Part shown: piece by piece, positions 56,066-63,824 of the stretch
How positions within the stretch are numbered: position 1 is the stretch's first letter
Layout: every line of letters starts with the position of its first letter
NCBI GenBank assembly: GCA_021604705.1
Contig: BQJM01000006.1
Location: forward strand, 2,087 to 66,086
Source: a marine bacterium B5-7
GTDB taxonomy: Bacteria > Pseudomonadota > Gammaproteobacteria > BQJM01
DNA: 64,000 nt
Direction: 5' to 3'
Notes under the pieces: generated by a model
Databases searched by the model: none
Told to the model about the DNA's origin: nothing
The model's input: only the letters and a program-made list of their open reading frames with translations
Translations under genes and position numbers: made by a program

Positions 56066-57220
56066 CTATTTAGATGCTGTGAATTGCGCAGTGGTATTCG
56101 TATCATTTGCGGGTAGCTTGATTTCGGCTGGTGTATTTTTTCTTGCTGGTGCATAGCCCAAGAATTTCCAAAAAGAATGCCGCATATCCTCTAGAAAACT
56201 GGGGCAGCGGGGCAGATTAGGCCCTGGTAAGCTTAGAGTATATGATGCTTTAGCTTCGCCACCATCGTTGGGGACTGCGGTTAAAGTCAATTGCGGCTCA
56301 CCCGCTGACGTTTCGCTATGGTGTAGCTGTAACTGATGATTCTCCACTAATTCCCACTGATGAGCGACAATAAAGCGGGCGGCTTTGGGATCATCTAAAA
56401 TGGCTTGGTATGTTTGTTCCGACATTGAATGCCCGACCATAGTTGCTTTTTCAGACAATGCATTCACTAGAAATTTGTCTAAGGCGTACTGTTTTGCGTG
56501 CTCTAAATTTTTTCCTTCTGCTAAACGCGTGCTGAACATCATCGGTATCTGTGTTCCTGCTTGCTTTGCATTTAACACCATGCGATGTTTTTCAGTGATG
56601 CGAGCCTGTCGATTGCTAGGAACCGTGCTGACAATGCGCATGGTGATATCAAGTAGGCTACCAGAAACGCGTGTTTCTTTTGATTGTAGTTTCAGTGTAT
56701 TAGGCCGGAGATTATCGTAAGTTGATAAAAATGTGTGAAATGCTTTTTGATTCAAAAACACATTTCGTACGAATGCTGGGTTGATGGATGCAAGGGTTGG
56801 CAACCATGCTTTTAAGGCCTTGTAAGCGTTTTCTGACAGTAAGGGAAGTGTGAGCCAAGGCGCATAGTCAACCATCACAAAATACTGGTTGTCTTCCCCA
56901 GCTTCATTTATTTTTTTAAACGCCAACCAGCGTACTGGTTGACGATCACTTTTTTCAAAGTGAAAAGCGTGGCTATAGATATACTGAAACTGCCAATCCC
57001 TATTTGTTTTATGATAGAGATCCAGAAACATACCGCGCATAGATTCCTTTTCTGCATCTGAAAGGATGTTGCTGGTGATATTGGGGGTGATAGGCGTTTG
57101 ATCGGATGTTGCTTGTGGCATGCCCGATGTCAGCTGTATTTGCTGCATGATGCTGGTATAGCCAGCAGGACAAGTGGGGGCTAAGCCCGGTGGGTTATAA
57201 GGTTCGGCTGCGAATGGCAT
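56066..57220 (-). CDS. Orphan hypothetical protein (384 aa), Pro/Thr/Ser-rich N-terminus
   Basis: ATG start, long ORF, no motif recognised. Confidence 0.5.
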   Translation of the reverse strand: MPFAAEPYNPPGLAPTCPAGYTSIMQQIQLTSGMPQATSDQTPITPNITSNILSDAEKESMRGMFLDLYHKTNRDWQFQYIYSHAFHFEKSDRQPVRWLAFKKINEAGEDNQYFVMVDYAPWLTLPLLSENAYKALKAWLPTLASINPAFVRNVFLNQKAFHTFLSTYDNLRPNTLKLQSKETRVSGSLLDITMRIVSTVPSNRQARITEKHRMVLNAKQAGTQIPMMFSTRLAEGKNLEHAKQYALDKFLVNALSEKATMVGHSMSEQTYQAILDDPKAARFIVAHQWELVENHQLQLHHSETSAGEPQLTLTAVPNDGGEAKASYTLSLPGPNLPRCPSFLEDMRHSFWKFLGYAPARKNTPAEIKLPANDTNTTAQFTASK

Positions 57221-57474
57221 AAGCGTGTGTTCCGTTTATTGTGTAGTCGACTATTCTAAGGTCTTTAGTTTAGTGCCACAAGCACATTAAAACCGAAGCT
57301 GACCCTCACTAGGCAGTGCAAAAGCATTCGCTGCATTTAATTGTGCGTAGGCAAGGTCATAATCAGAAAAATCGATGCTTGCGGTAAAAGTTTGTGCTCT
57401 GGCTAGCATGTGGCAAAAACAATTTCTTGTTCAAGCACCTGCAAATTTTTTCGATTAGTGGCCATTGAAATTTT

Positions 57475-57567
57475 CCATGAATGTTAAAATTTTTAGTCTA
57501 AAGCCGTTATTTTGTCAAAAATTTTAGATTAACAGGGTTATTTTGCAAAAATTTTAGAATAAGGAGG
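57475..57567. repeat. Three phased 31-bp repeats ending in a perfect SD
   Basis: ccatgaatgttaaaatttttagtctaaagcc / gttattttgtcaaaaattttagattaacagg / gttattttgcaaaaattttagaataaggagg. The units contain ATTTTG(T)CAAAAT palindromes. Confidence 0.75.
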
Positions 57568-57586
57568 CGCTTTGCTGGTTATGAGC

Positions 57587-57608
57587 ATTTTGCAAGATAA
57601 TGCAAAAT
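57587..57608. promoter_or_regulatory. 22-bp palindrome ATTTTGCA-N6-TGCAAAAT inside a 9-codon mini-ORF
   Basis: attttgca agataa tgcaaaat. The 38-nt context 57579-57616 matches 61751-61788 at 32 of 38 positions. Confidence 0.7.
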
Positions 57609-57763
57609 AGTCTTGATCTCTTCGCGTGTTTTTTGACGGAAAAATGCTAAAAGACAACGGCTGGATGGGCAACTGAGATATACCCCGGGAAAATGGTATT
57701 GACGCTTCTTGTTTCAATGGTGTAGCTTGTGAGCCTGGGTGAGTTATTTCTTCTAGGAGGTGT

Positions 57764-58090
57764 GTGATGAATGGTGGAAACGCAACTTTTTTTGAGCCAG
57801 AACGAATACCACAGAGCAGTTGTGATGCAGCAGAACAAATGAAGCAGCAGATGAAGCTAGCGGAAGCGGAACTTGTGCGCCTGAGCAGCGAGGCTGCATA
57901 CTTATCGAGGGAAAGAGCGCGGTGCATGCAAGCGATGGAAAGGTCGGAAAACGGCGGGCAATGGGCGTCGAGTACGGGCTATGAGAAACTGAGGCGAGAG
58001 ATGGATGAACTGAACAAAAAAATAGAGATCGCAGGTTGCCAGCTGGATGCGAGGCATCAAGTGTATTGTCGAGAATATTTAGGTATGTGA
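57764..58090 (+). CDS. Small coiled-coil hypothetical protein (108 aa)
   Basis: Strong SD ctaggaggtgtgtgATG. Heptad-like charged sequence. Confidence 0.5.
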   Translation: MMNGGNATFFEPERIPQSSCDAAEQMKQQMKLAEAELVRLSSEAAYLSRERARCMQAMERSENGGQWASSTGYEKLRREMDELNKKIEIAGCQLDARHQVYCREYLGM

Positions 58091-58131
58091 ATATTAACAG
58101 CTAGGATTGAGAAGCAGTCTACAGGTGGCGT

Positions 58132-60300
58132 ATGCAACTTCGTATCCATGTGGGTTTTATGCCGGAAGAGGTGTCAGCAAAGCTCAAACCCTGTCTTGAT
58201 AGGCGGCGATCAGAGCGCTCTATCATTATCATTTCACGAGATGATCCTGTCGGTAATGCTGCATTATTTGAGCAACCACTGTTACGCTACAAAGGTTTAT
58301 GTGCATCCCTCGAGCAGGGGCGGTGGGCGAGCCTTTTTAGTCCGATTTTGAGATCTGATGTTGATGACGTCTGCGAGACACTTACCCAAAAAATAGAAAG
58401 GCACATGGACTTTGATATTCGCGATTACCGTTTAGCCGATCTCAAATGCAAGTTGAAAGATACAAAAGATGGTCGTCCCCCCTTAACTGTCATGCGGGTT
58501 GGGCAAGGGAGTGTCTCAGATATTTTCTTTCAGCTTCCTGAAATGGGTTTTCAACCAAATTTATCGGTAAGACTGGCAGAGGGTGTTTTTCAGGGGGTGC
58601 TAGACTGGTTAGCAACCCTTGATCCTAACCTTTATGGCGATATAAACCTTGATATTTTTGGTGCGGGCGGCTCAGTGAATGCGTCCTGTTCGCCCGGTTC
58701 TATGCATGCTATTCAGGCAGTATTCAGTATCCGACGTTTACTAAAAACAACGTGTTTCACGAGCAAGCTTGCCCTAAAATATCTCTCAGATTCGGGTATG
58801 GATAATAAGCCTGGTGTGGTGCTGCAAAGTGGTGAGCTGTTAGATCATTTTCTGGCGCAGGAAGTGTCTCGCTATATCTTGTTGGTGCTAGCGTCAGATC
58901 TCGAGTCATATTCTCTCAGTCGTCCTTATTTGGAATATCTAAAAAGAAAGGCTCCTGACTACAGGCAGTGTAGTGAAAAAGTTAATACTTTGGTTGCAAA
59001 AAATGTTGAGATAGATGCCGACATTAATCGGCTTTATTCTTGCATGGGTTTATCTGAAGAGCCTTCTGTGAAAAAGGCGATTATCGAGAGTCTTTCTATT
59101 AGGAAGGCTCAAAAAAAACAAATTGAGGCAGAGTTAAAATATTTCTCTGATGAGAAAAAAGTAATTGAGCAAAAAGAAATTGATGGTATTAAAGCGATTG
59201 CTGATATTGTTGCTCCTGGGGAGCGGCGTCAACTACTACGAGACTTGTTAGCACGTAGTGTAAGAAATTTACCACCACATTCTGTTAGCTGTAGTGCCGG
59301 TATGTTTTTAGATGCAATGATGAAGCGGGCATGTAACAAACTGTTCGGAAGTTATGTTTCAGATGCAAATATGGAAGATGATATTTGTATTGAACTAGAC
59401 ACACACCTTAAAAAATGGGTTTCGCGCTTTAATGAAGAACATGTTACGACTATTCAGCTTATGTCTACGTGTAGAAGGGTCCATTGTGATCCTTATTGCA
59501 TTCCAGACGATGTGGTAAAAGCATTTAAAAACTGGGCATGTGACAAAAAGTATAGCCTTGAACATTATGTTAGCGCGGTTGTTTGGGGTGTGAGTGGATT
59601 TGATCAGCGTTATTTGCCTGAAACGGCATCTTGGGATCTTGAGGGCATTGACCATGAAGAGGTTGCACAGAGATTGGGCTTTAGGACAACGTGCAAAAAT
59701 GGACAGAAAATTATTTTAGATCCGTTTTGGCGTGAAATAGCGACGGATCTCTTGGATGACATTATTTCTGGGAAGGCATTTCCACCATCAATTGACCAAG
59801 AAGAGCGCGAGGGTCTTGCAAAGGAATTCGTCATGCTAAAAGATAAATTAATGTTTTGGTCTGCGAATGGTTTTTCTGTGCCAGCAGATATTCAGCAAGG
59901 ATTAGAAAAACACTTAAAAACGTTTTTGAATAAATGTTCTCTTCGGTTTGAGAATGAAGCAAATGAATTATGTTATCAAGTTTGGATCCGGCAAGGTAGC
60001 TGGGGTGGTAATGCCGCGCAGAGTTTATTTACGTTAGCAGAACCCTTGGATGCCTCACGACCAGAAGAGTATGCGGGTTTGGTGGATAGAGCTTTTTATG
60101 TTTCAACGAATATTGTTGCTTTACAACAGCGAGGGAAGGAATTAATTGAGCAGCAAAGTTTGAAAGAGCAGTTAGCGCAAGTAAATTCGAGAATCCAGAA
60201 TCTTTCTTCAGAAGTTGAGCAACTAAGAAGAAGAATCGCTGAAGCTGGACGAGGAGGTGCAACACCGGTAACCGTATTAGGACTAAATATCCCCACTTAG
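58132..60300 (+). CDS. Orphan hypothetical protein (722 aa) with C-terminal coiled coil
   Basis: ATG follows aggtgg. It lies 41 nt after the 108-aa ORF. C-terminal QQRGKELIEQQSLKEQLAQVNSRIQNLSSEVEQLRRRIAEA. Confidence 0.55.
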   Translation: MQLRIHVGFMPEEVSAKLKPCLDRRRSERSIIIISRDDPVGNAALFEQPLLRYKGLCASLEQGRWASLFSPILRSDVDDVCETLTQKIERHMDFDIRDYRLADLKCKLKDTKDGRPPLTVMRVGQGSVSDIFFQLPEMGFQPNLSVRLAEGVFQGVLDWLATLDPNLYGDINLDIFGAGGSVNASCSPGSMHAIQAVFSIRRLLKTTCFTSKLALKYLSDSGMDNKPGVVLQSGELLDHFLAQEVSRYILLVLASDLESYSLSRPYLEYLKRKAPDYRQCSEKVNTLVAKNVEIDADINRLYSCMGLSEEPSVKKAIIESLSIRKAQKKQIEAELKYFSDEKKVIEQKEIDGIKAIADIVAPGERRQLLRDLLARSVRNLPPHSVSCSAGMFLDAMMKRACNKLFGSYVSDANMEDDICIELDTHLKKWVSRFNEEHVTTIQLMSTCRRVHCDPYCIPDDVVKAFKNWACDKKYSLEHYVSAVVWGVSGFDQRYLPETASWDLEGIDHEEVAQRLGFRTTCKNGQKIILDPFWREIATDLLDDIISGKAFPPSIDQEEREGLAKEFVMLKDKLMFWSANGFSVPADIQQGLEKHLKTFLNKCSLRFENEANELCYQVWIRQGSWGGNAAQSLFTLAEPLDASRPEEYAGLVDRAFYVSTNIVALQQRGKELIEQQSLKEQLAQVNSRIQNLSSEVEQLRRRIAEAGRGGATPVTVLGLNIPT

Positions 60301-60382
60301 CTGAGCCCATATTTGTATTGGAAAGAATAAGCAAGGTATTATCTTTTTGATATTTTTTGGCCCCTGTTTTCCTGCTACAGCC

Positions 60383-60478
60383 CAAATTACCATGCACTTT
60401 GGTCCTGGCAGGGACAAATTACATTGCATTTTGTCCCTGCCAGGGCCAAAATGTAAAATATATTCAAGCGTAAACAGG
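60383..60478 (+). promoter_or_regulatory. Three phased 32-bp repeats directly 5' of ATPase paralogue F
   Basis: caaattaccatgcactttggtcctggcaggga / caaattacattgcattttgtccctgccagggc / caaaatgtaaaatatattcaagcgtaaacagg. Units 1 and 2 match at 25/32; cctggcagggacaaa and tttgtccctgccagg form a 15-bp inverted repeat. Confidence 0.75.
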
Positions 60479-60485
60479 TTATCCC

Positions 60486-61646
60486 ATGTCATCTCCCAGT
60501 GAATTTCAACGATCGTTAAATATACCGCTGGATGTTAATCAGAGCTTCTTCCTCTTTGGTCCTCGTGGTACAGGCAAAACGAGCTGGTTAAAAGCCAATG
60601 TAAAAAATGCCATTTATTTTGATTTGTTAAAAGCAAAATGGCGTAATCTTTTTTTAGCTGATCCGGGCCGGCTTGAGGAAAATATACCAGAGAATTTTGA
60701 TGGATGGGTGATTATTGATGAAGTGCAAAAAGCACCTGAACTCTTAAACGAAGTGCATCGTTTAATTGAAGAAAAACGTTACCGATTTATTTTGACAGGA
60801 TCCTCTGCTAGAAAGTTACGTCAGGAGGGCGTGAACTTATTAGCGGGTCGTGCGTACATCTACAACATGCACCCACTCACAGCAGAAGAAATGGGAGATG
60901 CGTTCCAGCTTGATAAATATCTCTTACATGGCGGTATTCCAGCTATTTATAATACAGAACTAAGTGCTGAAGAATTTCTAGCAAACTATATTGAAACCTA
61001 TCTTGAACAAGAAGTATTGCAAGAAGGATTGATTCGGCAACTAGAACCCTTTGCTCGTTTCTTAGAGAGCGCGTCTTTTTCTCAGGGAAGTACTTTAAAT
61101 ATGACAGCGGTTGCACGAGACTGTGCGGTGAGTCGAAAAATTGTCACCGGGTATTTTGATATTCTAAAAGACTTGTTGATAGGCTATAAATTGCAGCCAT
61201 TTACACGTCGTGCTCAGCGGCGTTTAACAATGAATCCCAAGTTTTATTATTTTGATGTAGGCGTTTTTCGCTATTTACGTCCTCAGGGACCATTAGACAG
61301 TACGAAAGAGTTAGATGGTCCTGCTTTAGAAACCCTTTTCTTACAAAATTTGCGGGCGATTAATGACTATCATCATTTAGGTTACTCGCTTTATTATTGG
61401 CGAACGAGTACGGGAACAGAAGTTGATTTCGTTTTGTATGGTGAACGTGGTTTTTATGCATTTGAAATAAAGCGGAGTGCGAAGATTACAAAATCGGATC
61501 TAAGTGGTTTAGGTGCTTTTCTGAAAGATTATCCTGAGGCAAAGGGATACTTGTTATACGGCGGTACGCATCGCGAGTACCATGGCAATATCACTGTACT
61601 TCCTTTCATTGAAGTTATTCAAACATTACGCGATTTCATTGGTTAA
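60486..61646 (+). CDS. AAA+ ATPase with PD-(D/E)xK-like C-terminus, paralogue F
   Basis: GPRGTGKTS, IIDEVQK, TGSSARKL, TEVDFVLYGERGFYAFEIK. Confidence 0.85.
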   Translation: MSSPSEFQRSLNIPLDVNQSFFLFGPRGTGKTSWLKANVKNAIYFDLLKAKWRNLFLADPGRLEENIPENFDGWVIIDEVQKAPELLNEVHRLIEEKRYRFILTGSSARKLRQEGVNLLAGRAYIYNMHPLTAEEMGDAFQLDKYLLHGGIPAIYNTELSAEEFLANYIETYLEQEVLQEGLIRQLEPFARFLESASFSQGSTLNMTAVARDCAVSRKIVTGYFDILKDLLIGYKLQPFTRRAQRRLTMNPKFYYFDVGVFRYLRPQGPLDSTKELDGPALETLFLQNLRAINDYHHLGYSLYYWRTSTGTEVDFVLYGERGFYAFEIKRSAKITKSDLSGLGAFLKDYPEAKGYLLYGGTHREYHGNITVLPFIEVIQTLRDFIG

Positions 61647-61677
61647 CGGAATAGATTTGGTCATCTTGGATGTACTA

Positions 61678-61703
61678 CTGTCACCTCGGGCGAAATGACA
61701 GTG
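61678..61703. repeat. Degenerate REP-like short inverted repeat
   Basis: ctgtcacctcgggcgaaatgacagtg. Confidence 0.3.
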
Positions 61704-61758
61704 TTTGTTTCTTCGGAAAATGCTAGGTGACAAGCTTAAGAACCCATTATTTTTGACC

Positions 61759-61812
61759 ATTTTGCACGATCTTGCAAAATAGTCATGACTTTTCTGCATT
61801 ATCGTGCAAATT
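61759..61812. repeat. Two palindromes of the ATTTTGCA-N6-TGCAAAAT type at a 32-bp period, with no adjacent gene start
   Basis: attttgca cgatct tgcaaaat (61759-61780) and the degenerate tttctgca ttatcg tgcaaatt (61791-61812). Confidence 0.7.
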
Positions 61813-61844
61813 AGTCAGGTTGAAATATATAGTAGCACAACATA

Positions 61845-61928
61845 TTACTAAGTATGATTAGTAAAATTATGGATCCTTACTAAGTATAATTAGTAAGGTC
61901 AAGTATTCTTACTAAGTATCATTAGTAA
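61845..61928. repeat. Orphan array of three 20-bp palindromes at an exact 32-bp period
   Basis: ttactaagtatgattagtaa (61845), ttactaagtataattagtaa (61877), ttactaagtatcattagtaa (61909). Confidence 0.85.
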
Positions 61929-62009
61929 CAGTGGGTTTCGAGATGGGTTAAATCCTTGTTTTGATTTTTCAGGGTTCATGCTGTGCAAATAACAGTGCGG
62001 GGTAAGCGC

Positions 62010-63056
62010 TTACTTTCTTCGTTGACCTGGGGATGGCAAAGGAGAGGTTCGTGCAGAAGAAGCGTCGTCAGCAGAGTCAGTAGCTGATGATGACGGGTCG
62101 GTGGTTGGTATACAAGAAAGTCGTTCAGCAAAGAGTTTTTCTTCTTGTGTATGTAATTCTTTTAAGTGAAAGAAAAAATCATGTTGAGCAAGCTCAGTTA
62201 AGCAACGCATATATTGTTGTAGCCAAGTGCTACTGAGTTCATTTTTTAAGAAAGGACGCGTATCGTCGTTGAACAGCGTACCTAAGGGTTTTGCCCAGGC
62301 GGTTTCGTCGTTAGCTTTAGGGAGTGTTTCGCTGACATCTAGGTATAAGGCATGTTGATAATACTTAATAGTCTGGTGTAGGAAGTAGGCGGCAATGTGT
62401 ACATCAAGGGCAAAGTGGTAAGTTTGGTAAGTGACATCGTTAATCACAGCATCCGCTAGGTTTAACCAATAGTGGGCGTGTTCCACGTAGGTCGAGATTT
62501 TATCTTCTGTCGATGTGTCGGTGCTTAGTTGTTTGAGTGCGGTATCCTGTGAACGACGACTTTCTTGGCGTTTTTTATACTCTGCAAAGAAAATAGGTTT
62601 TTGAGTTTCAGGTGAACTCCGCCATGTCAATGTGCTATCGAAGTCTAGTGGTAGTTCAGCTCCTTGTGTAGCTAGCGCGATGAAAGCTAGGACGATGGAG
62701 TAGGCACCTGAGTCCAGTAAGTGGCTTTCCCAGCGGCTGGGGCTGCCTTTTTCACAGCGAAGCGGAGAAACATTGTGCTTGGTAATTAAGTCAATAAATT
62801 TTTTTGCATCCGATTTAGATGTGTCAAATAGACCATAAAGGCTATCATGTTCTTCCGTATCTGACAGCCAAGCAAACATTCCCCTTGCTGGTGTAGGCTC
62901 AGCACCTAAAGCGACCGCCGTTGTAAATGTGATGTCACTATACATCTGGAAATTTACCTCTGTGCCCGACGGGACGATTGTAACACAATCGGACAGGTTC
63001 AGGCCTGTTTTTTTGTAGTCCTCCTGGAAAGTCACTGCTGTATAGTTATTTTCCAT
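62010..63056 (-). CDS. Orphan hypothetical protein (348 aa), Ser/Asp-rich C-terminal tail; member of a local paralogue pair
   Basis: ATG start. Its 3' 87 nt match 63914-64000 at 83/87. Confidence 0.5.
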   Translation of the reverse strand: MENNYTAVTFQEDYKKTGLNLSDCVTIVPSGTEVNFQMYSDITFTTAVALGAEPTPARGMFAWLSDTEEHDSLYGLFDTSKSDAKKFIDLITKHNVSPLRCEKGSPSRWESHLLDSGAYSIVLAFIALATQGAELPLDFDSTLTWRSSPETQKPIFFAEYKKRQESRRSQDTALKQLSTDTSTEDKISTYVEHAHYWLNLADAVINDVTYQTYHFALDVHIAAYFLHQTIKYYQHALYLDVSETLPKANDETAWAKPLGTLFNDDTRPFLKNELSSTWLQQYMRCLTELAQHDFFFHLKELHTQEEKLFAERLSCIPTTDPSSSATDSADDASSARTSPLPSPGQRRK

Positions 63057-63125
63057 GGCTCTTGTGATATTGTTTAGATCAATAAGGTCTAAGTAGGTTA
63101 GGGGGATGGTATCCCAGAACAGACT

Positions 63126-63824
63126 GTGGTTGTGAATGAAGATGATATTTCTACGCTCTATCGTATTATCAAGGTGCTATTGGAAATCATTCCGCCCAGT
63201 GCGCTGGCGGGTGCAGCCATTCAAACGATCAAAACACAAACGGGCGCCCCTGTCTTAGCTGGACTAAGTGCTGCGGTTTTTTTTGTGAGGCAAGGGGTCA
63301 GGCATCATCAGAAGCGAAGAAATACACAAAATCAAAGAAAAGTAATTTATGACAAGGCAAAAATTAAAGTTAGTGTTCCTGCTGCTAATGCATTGAATGC
63401 TCAACACTTCCCAGCTCTTCCCTGGCATCGTCGCATTGGTCGTTATTCATGGCGCTGGGAAGGCTTTGTCATGCCGATTGCCATCGTACTGATGATGACA
63501 TTTTCTATTATGTTAGAAATGACTGGTACGCCAAAAGAAACCACAACAGGTTGGCGAAATGACAGTTTGACAGGCCGGCTTATGCAAACGTTATCTGAAA
63601 GTTTGGTAACGGATTTACCTCAGCAGATGGGTGGACGCGTATCGGATTTGCTTATTGCCTTTTTCATGTATTGGTATCAATACATGATCGCGTTAAATGT
63701 TGATGATGAAGCTTCTCAGGTCGATAAATTTGAAAGATCGGTGAATGATGAAATGATGGCGCGCGCTGACCGCACGATTGGTGAGAAGAATACATTAGTT
63801 CGGGAAATCAATAGATTTAGCTGA
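63126..63824 (+). CDS. Hypothetical membrane protein (232 aa)
   Basis: GTG start. Hydrophobic segments ALAGAAIQ..VLAGLSAAVFFV and FVMPIAIVLMMTFSIML. Confidence 0.4.
   Translation: MVVNEDDISTLYRIIKVLLEIIPPSALAGAAIQTIKTQTGAPVLAGLSAAVFFVRQGVRHHQKRRNTQNQRKVIYDKAKIKVSVPAANALNAQHFPALPWHRRIGRYSWRWEGFVMPIAIVLMMTFSIMLEMTGTPKETTTGWRNDSLTGRLMQTLSESLVTDLPQQMGGRVSDLLIAFFMYWYQYMIALNVDDEASQVDKFERSVNDEMMARADRTIGEKNTLVREINRFS

What the first reader, a model, noticed from the sequence alone, without database searches (positions are those of the whole stretch)
61759..61928. Gene-less run of five phased palindromes downstream of ATPase paralogue F
Two ATTTTGCA-N6-TGCAAAAT-type palindromes lie at 61759-61780 and, degenerate, at 61791-61812. 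They are followed by three 20-bp palindromes TTACTAA-GTATNA-TTAGTAA at 61845, 61877 and 61909. Each set keeps an exact 32-bp period.

This is the same architecture as the arrays in front of paralogues B, D and F. Here, however, no gene start follows: the next CDS (62010-63056) is convergent.

Possible explanations:
- the operator of a deleted paralogue (a relic)
- a decoy or partition-like (centromere/iteron-like) site
- a trans target of one of the ATPases
Basis: seen in the sequence. Interest (0 to 1): 0.65.

Follow-up and report, generated by a model that had tools for sequence, protein, structure and literature searches.

The report
Orphan operator arrays of lost ATPase cassettes
The five phased palindromes are real and are the DNA sites that, in other bacteria, sit directly in front of two particular kinds of a very common untested "defence-candidate" ATPase-nuclease gene; here both genes are missing, so the sites are most likely footprints of lost gene cassettes.

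Summary
There are two abutting 32-bp palindromic units (61754-61817) and three TTACTAAGTATNATTAGTAA palindromes (61845, 61877, 61909), all at a 32-bp period and unique in the 1.72-Mb genome.

Both motifs can now be identified.
- TTACTAAGTATNATTAGTAA lies 3-30 bp upstream of one orthologous clade of PDC-S01 ATPases (AAA_14 + wHTH + DUF4143) in Campylobacterota and other Gammaproteobacteria. Its centre is a -10-like box pointing at the gene. In 10 such genomes it occurs only beside that gene.
- TGACyATTTTGCA-N6-TGCAAAATrGTCA precedes a second clade in 5 of 7 metagenome loci.

This genome has no member of the first clade. It has only a diverged member of the second (C1:67887-69020), which carries an altered operator.

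Other genomes show stages of loss: an intact cassette bracketed by operator copies, an internally deleted pseudogene, a short gene stub, and a solo array between housekeeping genes. Four resident paralogues are also bracketed by operator copies.

Best reading: these are solo operator-promoter arrays left after cassette loss.

One caveat applies. The palindromes still match the consensus and are better conserved than their flanks in a diverged strain, which carries 2 rather than 3 units. A present function, such as trans binding or a constitutive promoter, is therefore not excluded. No RNA data exist.

The parts
61754..61785 (.). Array 1, unit 1: a perfect 32-bp palindromic unit, TGACCATTTTGCA-CGATCT-TGCAAAATAGTCA. 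It contains a promoter-like match, TTGACC(61753)-16-CAAAAT(61780), on the + strand.
   Evidence: The same unit sits in front of 373-404 aa PDC-S01 ATPases in L032, L033, L034, L036 and L038.
61786..61817 (.). Array 1, unit 2: a degenerate unit, TGACTTTTCTGCA-TTATCG-TGCAAATTAGTCA. The arm next to unit 1 (GACTTTTCnGC) is degenerate in the same way as in L032, L034 and L036.
61845..61864 (+). Array 2, unit 1: TTACTAAGTATGATTAGTAA. Its centre, TATGAT (61853-61858), is -10-like and points rightward.
   Evidence: It is identical in strain X2.
61877..61896 (+). Array 2, unit 2: TTACTAAGTATAATTAGTAA. Its centre is a perfect TATAAT (61885-61890). The 20-mer is identical to the one in front of ATPases in L004, L007, L011 and L014, and in reverse orientation in L008 and L015.
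61909..61928 (+). Array 2, unit 3: TTACTAAGTATCATTAGTAA. It is absent in strain X2, which has a clean 32-nt difference, and present in X3.
61869..61883 (+). Mini-ORF ATG GAT CCT TAC TAA between units 1 and 2. Its start lies 4 nt after unit 1 and its stop lies inside unit 2. This mimics the start (GTAAAAT-ATG-GA) and end (TAC TAA inside the downstream unit) of the L005/L009 ATPase genes. It may be a collapsed gene, but the evidence is weak.
61943..61951 (+). ATG GGT TAA, 14 nt after unit 3, at the position where a gene start would be expected. The ATG is ATA in strain X2.
57584..57615 (.). A solitary third copy of the array-1 unit, TGAGCATTTTGCA-AGATAA-TGCAAAATAGTCT. It is preceded by two decayed units at 57509-57571.
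60486..61646 (+). Paralogue F: AAA_14 + DUF4143, PADLOC PDC-S01. It has its own, different operator at about 60383-60450 and is not the cognate of either orphan array.
62010..63056 (-). Convergent 348-aa orphan CDS with no family hit. It would be read antisense by any rightward transcript from array 2.

Best explanation
The segment is two juxtaposed solo operator-promoter arrays of PDC-S01 ATPase-nuclease cassettes (AAA_14 ATPase + winged helix + DUF4143 PD-(D/E)xK nuclease). Each array belongs to a different orthologous clade of these proteins.

Shown:
- In other bacteria each motif sits 3-30 bp in front of the start codon of its own clade, often as 2 units at 32 bp.
- The TTACTAA palindrome carries a -10-like box in its centre that points at the gene.
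- In genomes with the cognate gene, the site occurs only beside that gene.
- This genome lacks the TTACTAA clade. It has only a diverged member of the TTTTGCA clade elsewhere, with an altered operator.
- Such cassettes are often bracketed by operator copies on both sides.

Inferred:
- The protein's winged helix binds these half-sites and represses its own promoter.
- The two cassettes once lay next to paralogue F, in a cassette hotspot.
- Their ORFs were lost by deletion or by recombination between the bracketing operator copies, much as solo LTRs arise.
- With the cognate repressors gone, the arrays are now unoccupied, or at most weakly bound by the related resident paralogue.
For: TTACTAA motif, search by motif: an exact-motif scan of 185,579 species genomes gave 13 loci. 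In 7 the palindrome lies 3-30 bp upstream of an intact 417-430 aa ATPase, and in one (L009) upstream of a pseudogene. L004 has 2 units at 32 bp. These ATPases form one clade at 38-90% identity.

TTACTAA motif, reverse test by protein: the four best orthologues among 400 Gammaproteobacteria are 45-58% identical. Three of them carry the palindrome, twice as 2 units at 32 bp. Homologues at 36-37% identity carry other motifs.

TTTTGCA motif: the 32-bp unit was found in 7 metagenome loci. Five lie directly upstream of one ATPase clade, one has a roughly 20-codon stub, and one is a solo array between an aaRS gene and a tRNA methyltransferase gene.

No cognate here: the best match to the TTACTAA clade is 36% identical (C3:13129), has its own GGCGGATTATA operator, and groups with non-TTACTAA loci.

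Cis-only distribution: in 10 genomes with the cognate gene, the sites occur only at the gene.

Stages of decay: L005 is intact and bracketed by operators. L009 has an internal deletion of about residues 134-320 with both operators kept. L037 is a stub. L035 and this window are solo arrays.

Bracketing in this genome: four resident paralogues (C1:61338, C1:67887, C11:14733, C10:8179) have operator copies at both ends.

No rival feature in the region:
- No coding remnant, Rfam family or stable RNA fold was found.
- The 57-aa minus-strand ORF is frameshifted in strain X2.
Against: The palindromes show no decay. All three TTACTAA units match the cross-phylum consensus at 19 of 19 specified positions.

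A diverged strain (X2) is also gene-less, and its arrays are well conserved:
- Arrays: 0-2 differences in 104 array positions.
- Flanking intergenic positions: 21 differences in about 198. The right flank alone is 20% different.
- This suggests selection and therefore a reader protein. The contrast is not significant, however, if only the left flank and the spacers are used as the neutral reference.

The exact 32-bp phase between all units, and 53 bp between the two arrays, is not expected from random deletions.

The deletion events themselves are not observed, and no occupied allele of this locus was found. Binding of any protein to these sites is inferred, not shown.
Confidence: 0.6

Rival explanations
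1. The arrays are functional trans sites kept by selection. A resident paralogue would bind them: C1:67887-69020 for the TTTTGCA units, and an unidentified reader for TTACTAA. They would serve as an auxiliary sink or decoy, an assembly platform, or an insulator between the convergent genes.
For: - The arrays are at perfect consensus and are more conserved than their flanks in strain X2.
- All five palindromes lie on one face of the helix (spacings 32, 53, 32, 32 bp).
- C1:67887 is nested inside the TTTTGCA clade with 98/90 support. It has a similar recognition helix (NTxKRW), and its half-site ATTCTGGA differs from ATTTTGCA at 2 of 8 positions.
- A third TTTTGCA unit lies at 57584.
Against: - In 10 genomes with the cognate ATPase there are no unlinked TTACTAA sites, so trans sites are not a feature of this family.
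- No TTACTAA-clade protein is present in the genome.
- C1:67887's own operator differs at positions that are invariant in the five TTTTGCA operators.
- Unit number differs between strains, 3 against 2.
Confidence: 0.2
2. The arrays are derepressed promoters. With no cognate repressor, the -10 boxes in the TTACTAA units fire rightward, and the TTGACC-16-CAAAAT element in unit 1 of array 1 also fires. This would give a short non-coding RNA or an antisense RNA to the convergent 348-aa gene.
For: - The palindrome centre reads TAT(A/G/C)AT towards the gene at the gene-linked loci examined, and all three units here point rightward.
- There is a promoter-like match at 61753-61780.
Against: - The downstream region 61931-62009 is the most divergent part of the locus (20%) and shows no stable fold (z = 0.16).
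- No RNA runs are available.
- Promoter function would constrain the -10 box, not the palindrome arms.
Confidence: 0.1
3. The cognate ATPase genes do exist in this organism but lie in the unassembled part (about 2.6%) or on an unbinned plasmid or phage. The arrays would then be real trans targets of those proteins.
For: - The genome is a 65-contig MAG with 97.4% completeness.
- Several paralogues sit at contig ends.
Against: - The sites are cis-only in 10 other genomes.
- Neither motif occurs in 2.9 million viral contigs.
- The X1 contigs covering the locus show no alternative joints.
Confidence: 0.06
4. A small protein gene or structured sRNA explains the region.
For: - A 57-aa ORF lies on the minus strand at 61626-61799.
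- The palindromes would form hairpins if transcribed.
Against: - The ORF is frameshifted by a 1-nt insertion in X2 and has no family hit.
- There is no Rfam match above noise.
- One whole unit is missing in X2.
Confidence: 0.03

Closest known systems
Upstream phased palindrome arrays of PDC-S01 (COG1373; AAA_14 + DUF4143) cassettes. These were described only by earlier agents of this scan. The published literature lists PDC-S01 only as an abundant, unvalidated defence candidate (PMC12988326).
   Same: The unit type (18-32-bp palindromes), the 32-bp period and the 2-3 units per array all match. The exact motifs are those of two defined clades.
   Different: No ATPase gene follows. Two arrays of different specificity abut each other. 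The cognate clades are absent or diverged in this genome.
Solo LTRs and other footprints left by recombination between the flanking repeats of a mobile unit
   Same: A repeat that normally brackets a gene remains alone after the internal part is lost. Stages of loss are seen in other genomes (L005, L009, L037, L035).
   Different: These repeats are short protein-binding palindromes that are part of a promoter, not long terminal repeats. The recombination event is inferred, not observed.
NtrC-type enhancer sites and autoregulatory operators of oligomeric AAA+ regulators (from general knowledge)
   Same: Dyad sites are spaced about three helical turns apart on one face of the DNA, which suits cooperative assembly of an AAA+ oligomer. 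The sites overlap or adjoin the regulator's own promoter.
   Different: The protein here carries a nuclease domain and no sigma-54 interaction module. No binding has been shown.
Plasmid iterons and parS/parC centromeres
   Same: Short repeated protein-binding sites occur in phased arrays.
   Different: No rep or par gene is adjacent, and the sites are palindromes rather than direct iterons. The motif is single-locus, and in other genomes it is tied to an ATPase-nuclease gene.

Membership tests
PDC-S01 cassette operator array | Palindromic units of 18-32 bp repeated at a 32-33-bp period | tested here: met
PDC-S01 cassette operator array | The motif is the one carried by a specific orthologous ATPase clade, so motif and protein co-vary | tested here: met
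   TTACTAA clade. TTTTGCA clade.
PDC-S01 cassette operator array | The array ends 3-30 bp before the start codon of a PDC-S01 ATPase gene | tested here: not met
   No ATPase ORF or coding remnant lies on either side. Only the mini-ORFs at 61869-61883 and 61943-61951 are present.
PDC-S01 cassette operator array | The site is bound by the encoded ATPase (autoregulation) | not testable with these tools
   This needs EMSA, DAP-seq or ChIP. An HTH is predicted at residues 191-231 of the L033 protein.
REP/BIME or MITE-type dispersed repeats | Many dispersed copies in the genome | tested here: not met
   The TTACTAA-N6 motif is unique to this locus, and the TTTTGCA unit has only one further copy. True REP-like elements of this genome have a different sequence.
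Plasmid iteron or partition centromere | Adjacent rep or parAB genes | tested here: not met
   The neighbouring proteins have no Pfam, NCBIfam or PADLOC hit other than F = PDC-S01.
CRISPR array | Identical direct repeats of 28-37 bp separated by unique spacers of similar length, giving a period of about 60-70 bp | tested here: not met
   The period is 32 bp, the 20-bp palindromes are separated by 12-bp spacers, and there are only 2-3 units.
Known RNA family or intrinsic terminator | An Rfam covariance-model match, or a GC-rich hairpin followed by a T-run | tested here: not met

The most novel reading that the evidence does not exclude
The arrays are empty docking sites of a mobile operator-gene-operator module. 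PDC-S01 ATPase-nucleases would assemble on their own phased palindromes, and the ORF would be precisely bracketed by them: the start codon 3-4 nt after one unit and the stop codon inside the next.

The ORF could then be excised from, or copied into, such sites by the module's own nuclease or by recombination between the units. On this reading, orphan arrays that stay at perfect consensus and in phase (as here, in front of polA on C39, and in L035) are reusable landing pads, not dead relics.

This would explain three things: why the arrays stay intact without a resident gene, why the unit number differs between strains, and why the cassettes sit between housekeeping genes.
Probability: 0.1. Interest if true: 0.8.

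Novelty: new variant of a known kind. Interest (0 to 1): 0.5.

Why it matters
PDC-S01 is reported as the fourth most common defence candidate in prokaryotes, and it has never been tested (PMC12988326).

This locus, with the comparisons it prompted, gives two concrete protein-clade to DNA-motif assignments. One is a 20-bp palindrome that stays letter-perfect between Campylobacterota and Gammaproteobacteria while the proteins fall to about 40% identity. That makes the DNA ligand of the family directly testable.

The orphan arrays are natural operator-only sites. They show that the cassettes turn over and leave recognisable footprints, which can be used to trace past cassette content and insertion hotspots. 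If the arrays prove to be maintained by selection, that would point to a function of the sites beyond autoregulation.

Tried and rejected
- Close relatives: none exist in the GTDB set. The 40 nearest genomes are only of the same class, and none matches the region.
- Exact ATTTTGCA-N6-TGCAAAAT in 400 Gammaproteobacteria and in viral contigs: the hits were chance or coding matches with no ATPase neighbour. Only the longer 32-bp unit pattern was informative.
- Viral contigs: neither specific motif is present.
- RNA evidence: no RNA runs hold the region.
- Coding remnants: a sensitive tblastn of both clades against 61600-62100 gave only noise.
- Structured RNA or terminators:
  - Folds are not better than shuffles.
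  - Rfam gave only sub-threshold miRNA-like noise caused by the palindromes.
- Orientation of array 1: I tried to infer it from which unit is perfect, but other loci show both arrangements, so it stays ambiguous.
- Strain X2 letters in palindrome 2 and in 61799-61828: the tool does not list differences within about 30 nt of the ends of aligned pieces. At most one difference in each stretch remains unplaced.
- Conservation of the 57584 unit in X2: this was uninformative, because the contig starts inside the palindrome.

Full report
**1. Observation**

- The first two are the cores of two abutting 32-bp units.
  - TGACCATTTTGCA-CGATCT-TGCAAAATAGTCA lies at 61754-61785.
  - The degenerate TGACTTTTCTGCA-TTATCG-TGCAAATTAGTCA lies at 61786-61817.
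- The other three are TTACTAAGTAT[G/A/C]ATTAGTAA at 61845, 61877 and 61909.
- The period is 32 bp within each set.
- The two sets are 53 bp apart centre to centre, so all five lie on about the same helical face.

Chance does not explain this. The 20-mer was found 0 times in 100 shuffles. In the whole 1.72-Mb genome the TTACTAA-N6 motif is unique to this locus, and the TTTTGCA-N6 motif has one more exact copy, at 57588-57607.

The assembly is supported by independent Logan contigs of three metagenome runs.

**2. Context**

F (60486-61646) is an AAA_14 + DUF4143 protein and matches PADLOC PDC-S01. The genome holds more than 30 paralogues of this and related AAA families.

A genome-wide scan for phased palindromes found about 20 arrays.
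- Each has its own sequence and 2-3 units at 31-34 bp.
- Most end 10-30 bp before the start codon of such an ATPase.
- This agrees with earlier notes of this scan.

Published work lists PDC-S01 only as a very abundant, untested defence candidate.

**3. Identity of array 2 (TTACTAA)**

An exact-motif scan of one genome per species returned 13 loci.
- In 7 of them the palindrome lies 3-30 bp upstream of an intact 417-430 aa ATPase. These are in Campylobacterota and uncultured Gammaproteobacteria.
- In an eighth, L009, it lies upstream of a pseudogene.
- L004 has two units 32 bp apart, followed by the ATG.

The ATPases at these loci form one clade at 38-90% identity.

I then ran the test in the other direction, selecting by protein among 400 Gammaproteobacteria.
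- The four best orthologues are 45-58% identical. Three of them carry the palindrome, twice as two units at 32 bp.
- Homologues at 36-37% identity carry other motifs. This includes this genome's best match, C3:13129-14406, whose operator is GGCGGATTATA-type.

The centre of the palindrome reads TAT(A/G/C)AT in the direction of the gene at the gene-linked loci examined (the gene-proximal second unit of L004 is reversed), so it contains the -10 box. In the window all three units point rightward.

In 10 genomes that hold the cognate gene, TTACTAA-N6-TTAGTAA occurs only beside that gene. No sequence in this genome exceeds 36% identity to the clade.

**4. Identity of array 1 (TTTTGCA)**

The full 32-bp unit pattern found 7 metagenome loci.
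- Five lie directly upstream of one clade of 373-404 aa ATPases. Usually there is one perfect and one degenerate unit at 32 bp, with the same degenerate arm (GACTTTTCnGC) as in the window.
- One, L037, keeps only about 20 codons of the gene.
- One, L035, is a solo array between a class II aminoacyl-tRNA synthetase gene and a tRNA methyltransferase gene.

In the tree, the resident paralogue C1:67887-69020 is nested in this clade as sister of L036, with 98/90 support. Its own operator keeps the outer GACyA..TrGTC frame but has ATTCTGGA instead of ATTTTGCA. Its recognition helix also differs at its first two positions.

**5. How solo arrays can arise**

Cassettes are often bracketed by operator copies.
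- In L005 one unit lies 4 nt before the ATG. The stop codon (TAC TAA) lies inside the first of two downstream units, which are 32 bp apart, between convergent genes.
- L009 has the same layout, but residues about 134-320 of the ORF are deleted.
- Four resident paralogues have operator copies at both ends. In C1:67887 the stop codon lies inside the downstream copy, whose -35 element is disabled.

Recombination or deletion between such copies would leave a solo array. The observed stages are: intact, internally deleted, stub, solo.

In the window, the 12-nt spacer between units 1 and 2 reads AATT-ATG-GAT-CC and runs into TAC-TAA of unit 2. This mimics the start and end of the L005/L009 gene. It may be a collapsed ORF, but it could also be chance.

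The genome has further orphan arrays.
- A 2+3 double array lies in front of polA on C39.
- A TTACTAA-N7 pair lies on C5.
- A partly decayed TTTTGCA array lies at 57509-57615.

**6. Strain comparison**

Run X2 holds a strain that differs by about 3-5% in the coding parts covered here, and by more in some intergenic stretches. It is also gene-less at this locus and has two TTACTAA units instead of three, a clean 32-nt difference. X3 has three units.

No difference is listed inside 61754-61798 or in palindrome 1. At most one unplaced difference lies in 61799-61828, and at most one in palindrome 2 plus its 6 flanking nt.

The flanks differ more:
- Left flank: 4 differences in 107 positions.
- Spacer: 1 in 12.
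- Right flank: 16 in 79.

Overall, arrays show 0-2 differences in 104 positions against 21 in 198 for the flanks. This suggests constraint. The contrast is not significant, however, if the fast-evolving right flank is left out.

The ATG after unit 3 is not conserved. The 57-aa minus-strand ORF is frameshifted in X2.

**7. Other readings tested**

I found no Rfam family, no stable fold, no convincing terminator and no family hit for the small ORFs. There are no RNA runs for this region, and neither motif occurs in viral contigs.

**8. Verdict**

What the palindromes are is well supported: they are operator arrays of two defined PDC-S01 clades, without their genes.

That they are footprints of lost cassettes is the best-supported history, at about 0.6. 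Whether they are inert today is open. Their perfect consensus, kept phase and conservation in a second strain leave room for a present function.
- Trans binding: about 0.2.
- Derepressed promoter: about 0.1.

The boldest reading is that such arrays are reusable docking sites of a mobile operator-gene-operator module, at about 0.1.

Noticed in passing
window 57509-57615: A perfect copy of the array-1 unit (57584-57615) is preceded by two 31-bp direct repeats that keep only the ATTTTG(T)CA arm. This looks like a decaying three-unit array. It lies in the 550-bp gap between the divergent orphan genes 56066-57220(-) and 57767-58090(+). Strain X2 has extra DNA inserted at about 57664-57669.
   Followed up: partly
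genome contig C39:1040-1240 (outside the window): A second orphan 2+3 double array: 2 x CACAyTTTTAGGTACCTAAAArTGTG at 32 bp, then 3 x TnTCCTTnCnnGAAGGAAAGA at 33 bp. It lies between a PIN/VapC-like gene and the start of polA (DNA polymerase I), about 50 bp before the polA ATG. No ATPase gene is adjacent.
   Followed up: partly
genome contig C5:57871-57925 (outside the window): Two TTACTAA-N7-TTAGTAA palindromes lie at a 33-bp period, with the same half-site as array 2 but a 7-nt spacer. They sit beside REP-like elements and what looks like a gene fragment. No ATPase gene follows.
   Followed up: no
genome contig C1:67800-69110 (outside the window): The resident TTTTGCA-clade paralogue C1:67887-69020 has its stop codon TAG inside a downstream copy of its own operator (TTCCAGAATAG-CCGTAACC-ATTCTGGAA). 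In that copy the -35-like TTGACC of the upstream copy is changed to CGTAACC. C11:14733, C10:8179 and C1:61338 also carry operator copies at both ends.
   Followed up: partly
L009:1233-1960 and L005:2365-3726: In two small, AT-rich uncultured gammaproteobacterial bins the TTACTAA-clade ATPase is precisely bracketed by palindromes. The ATG lies 3-4 nt after the upstream unit, and the stop TAC-TAA lies inside the downstream unit. In L009 the ORF has lost about residues 134-320, but both operators are intact.
   Followed up: yes
window 60383-60450: F's own upstream region holds a long palindrome, CCTGGCAGGGACAAA-TTACATTGCA-TTTTGTCCCTGCCAGG, flanked by related half-sites. It is unrelated in sequence to either orphan array.
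   Followed up: no
genome contigs C28:9306 and C34:3550 (outside the window): Phased palindrome pairs also precede a Fic-domain gene (C28:8163-9275) and a 375-aa P-loop ATPase with only weak AAA_22/AAA_14 hits (C34:2383-3510). The array architecture is therefore not restricted to AAA_14 + DUF4143 genes.
   Followed up: partly
window 56066-63824: The genes around the arrays (384 aa, 107 aa, 722 aa, 348 aa and 232 aa) have no Pfam, NCBIfam or PADLOC hits. This part of the window is an island of lineage-specific orphan genes.
   Followed up: partly
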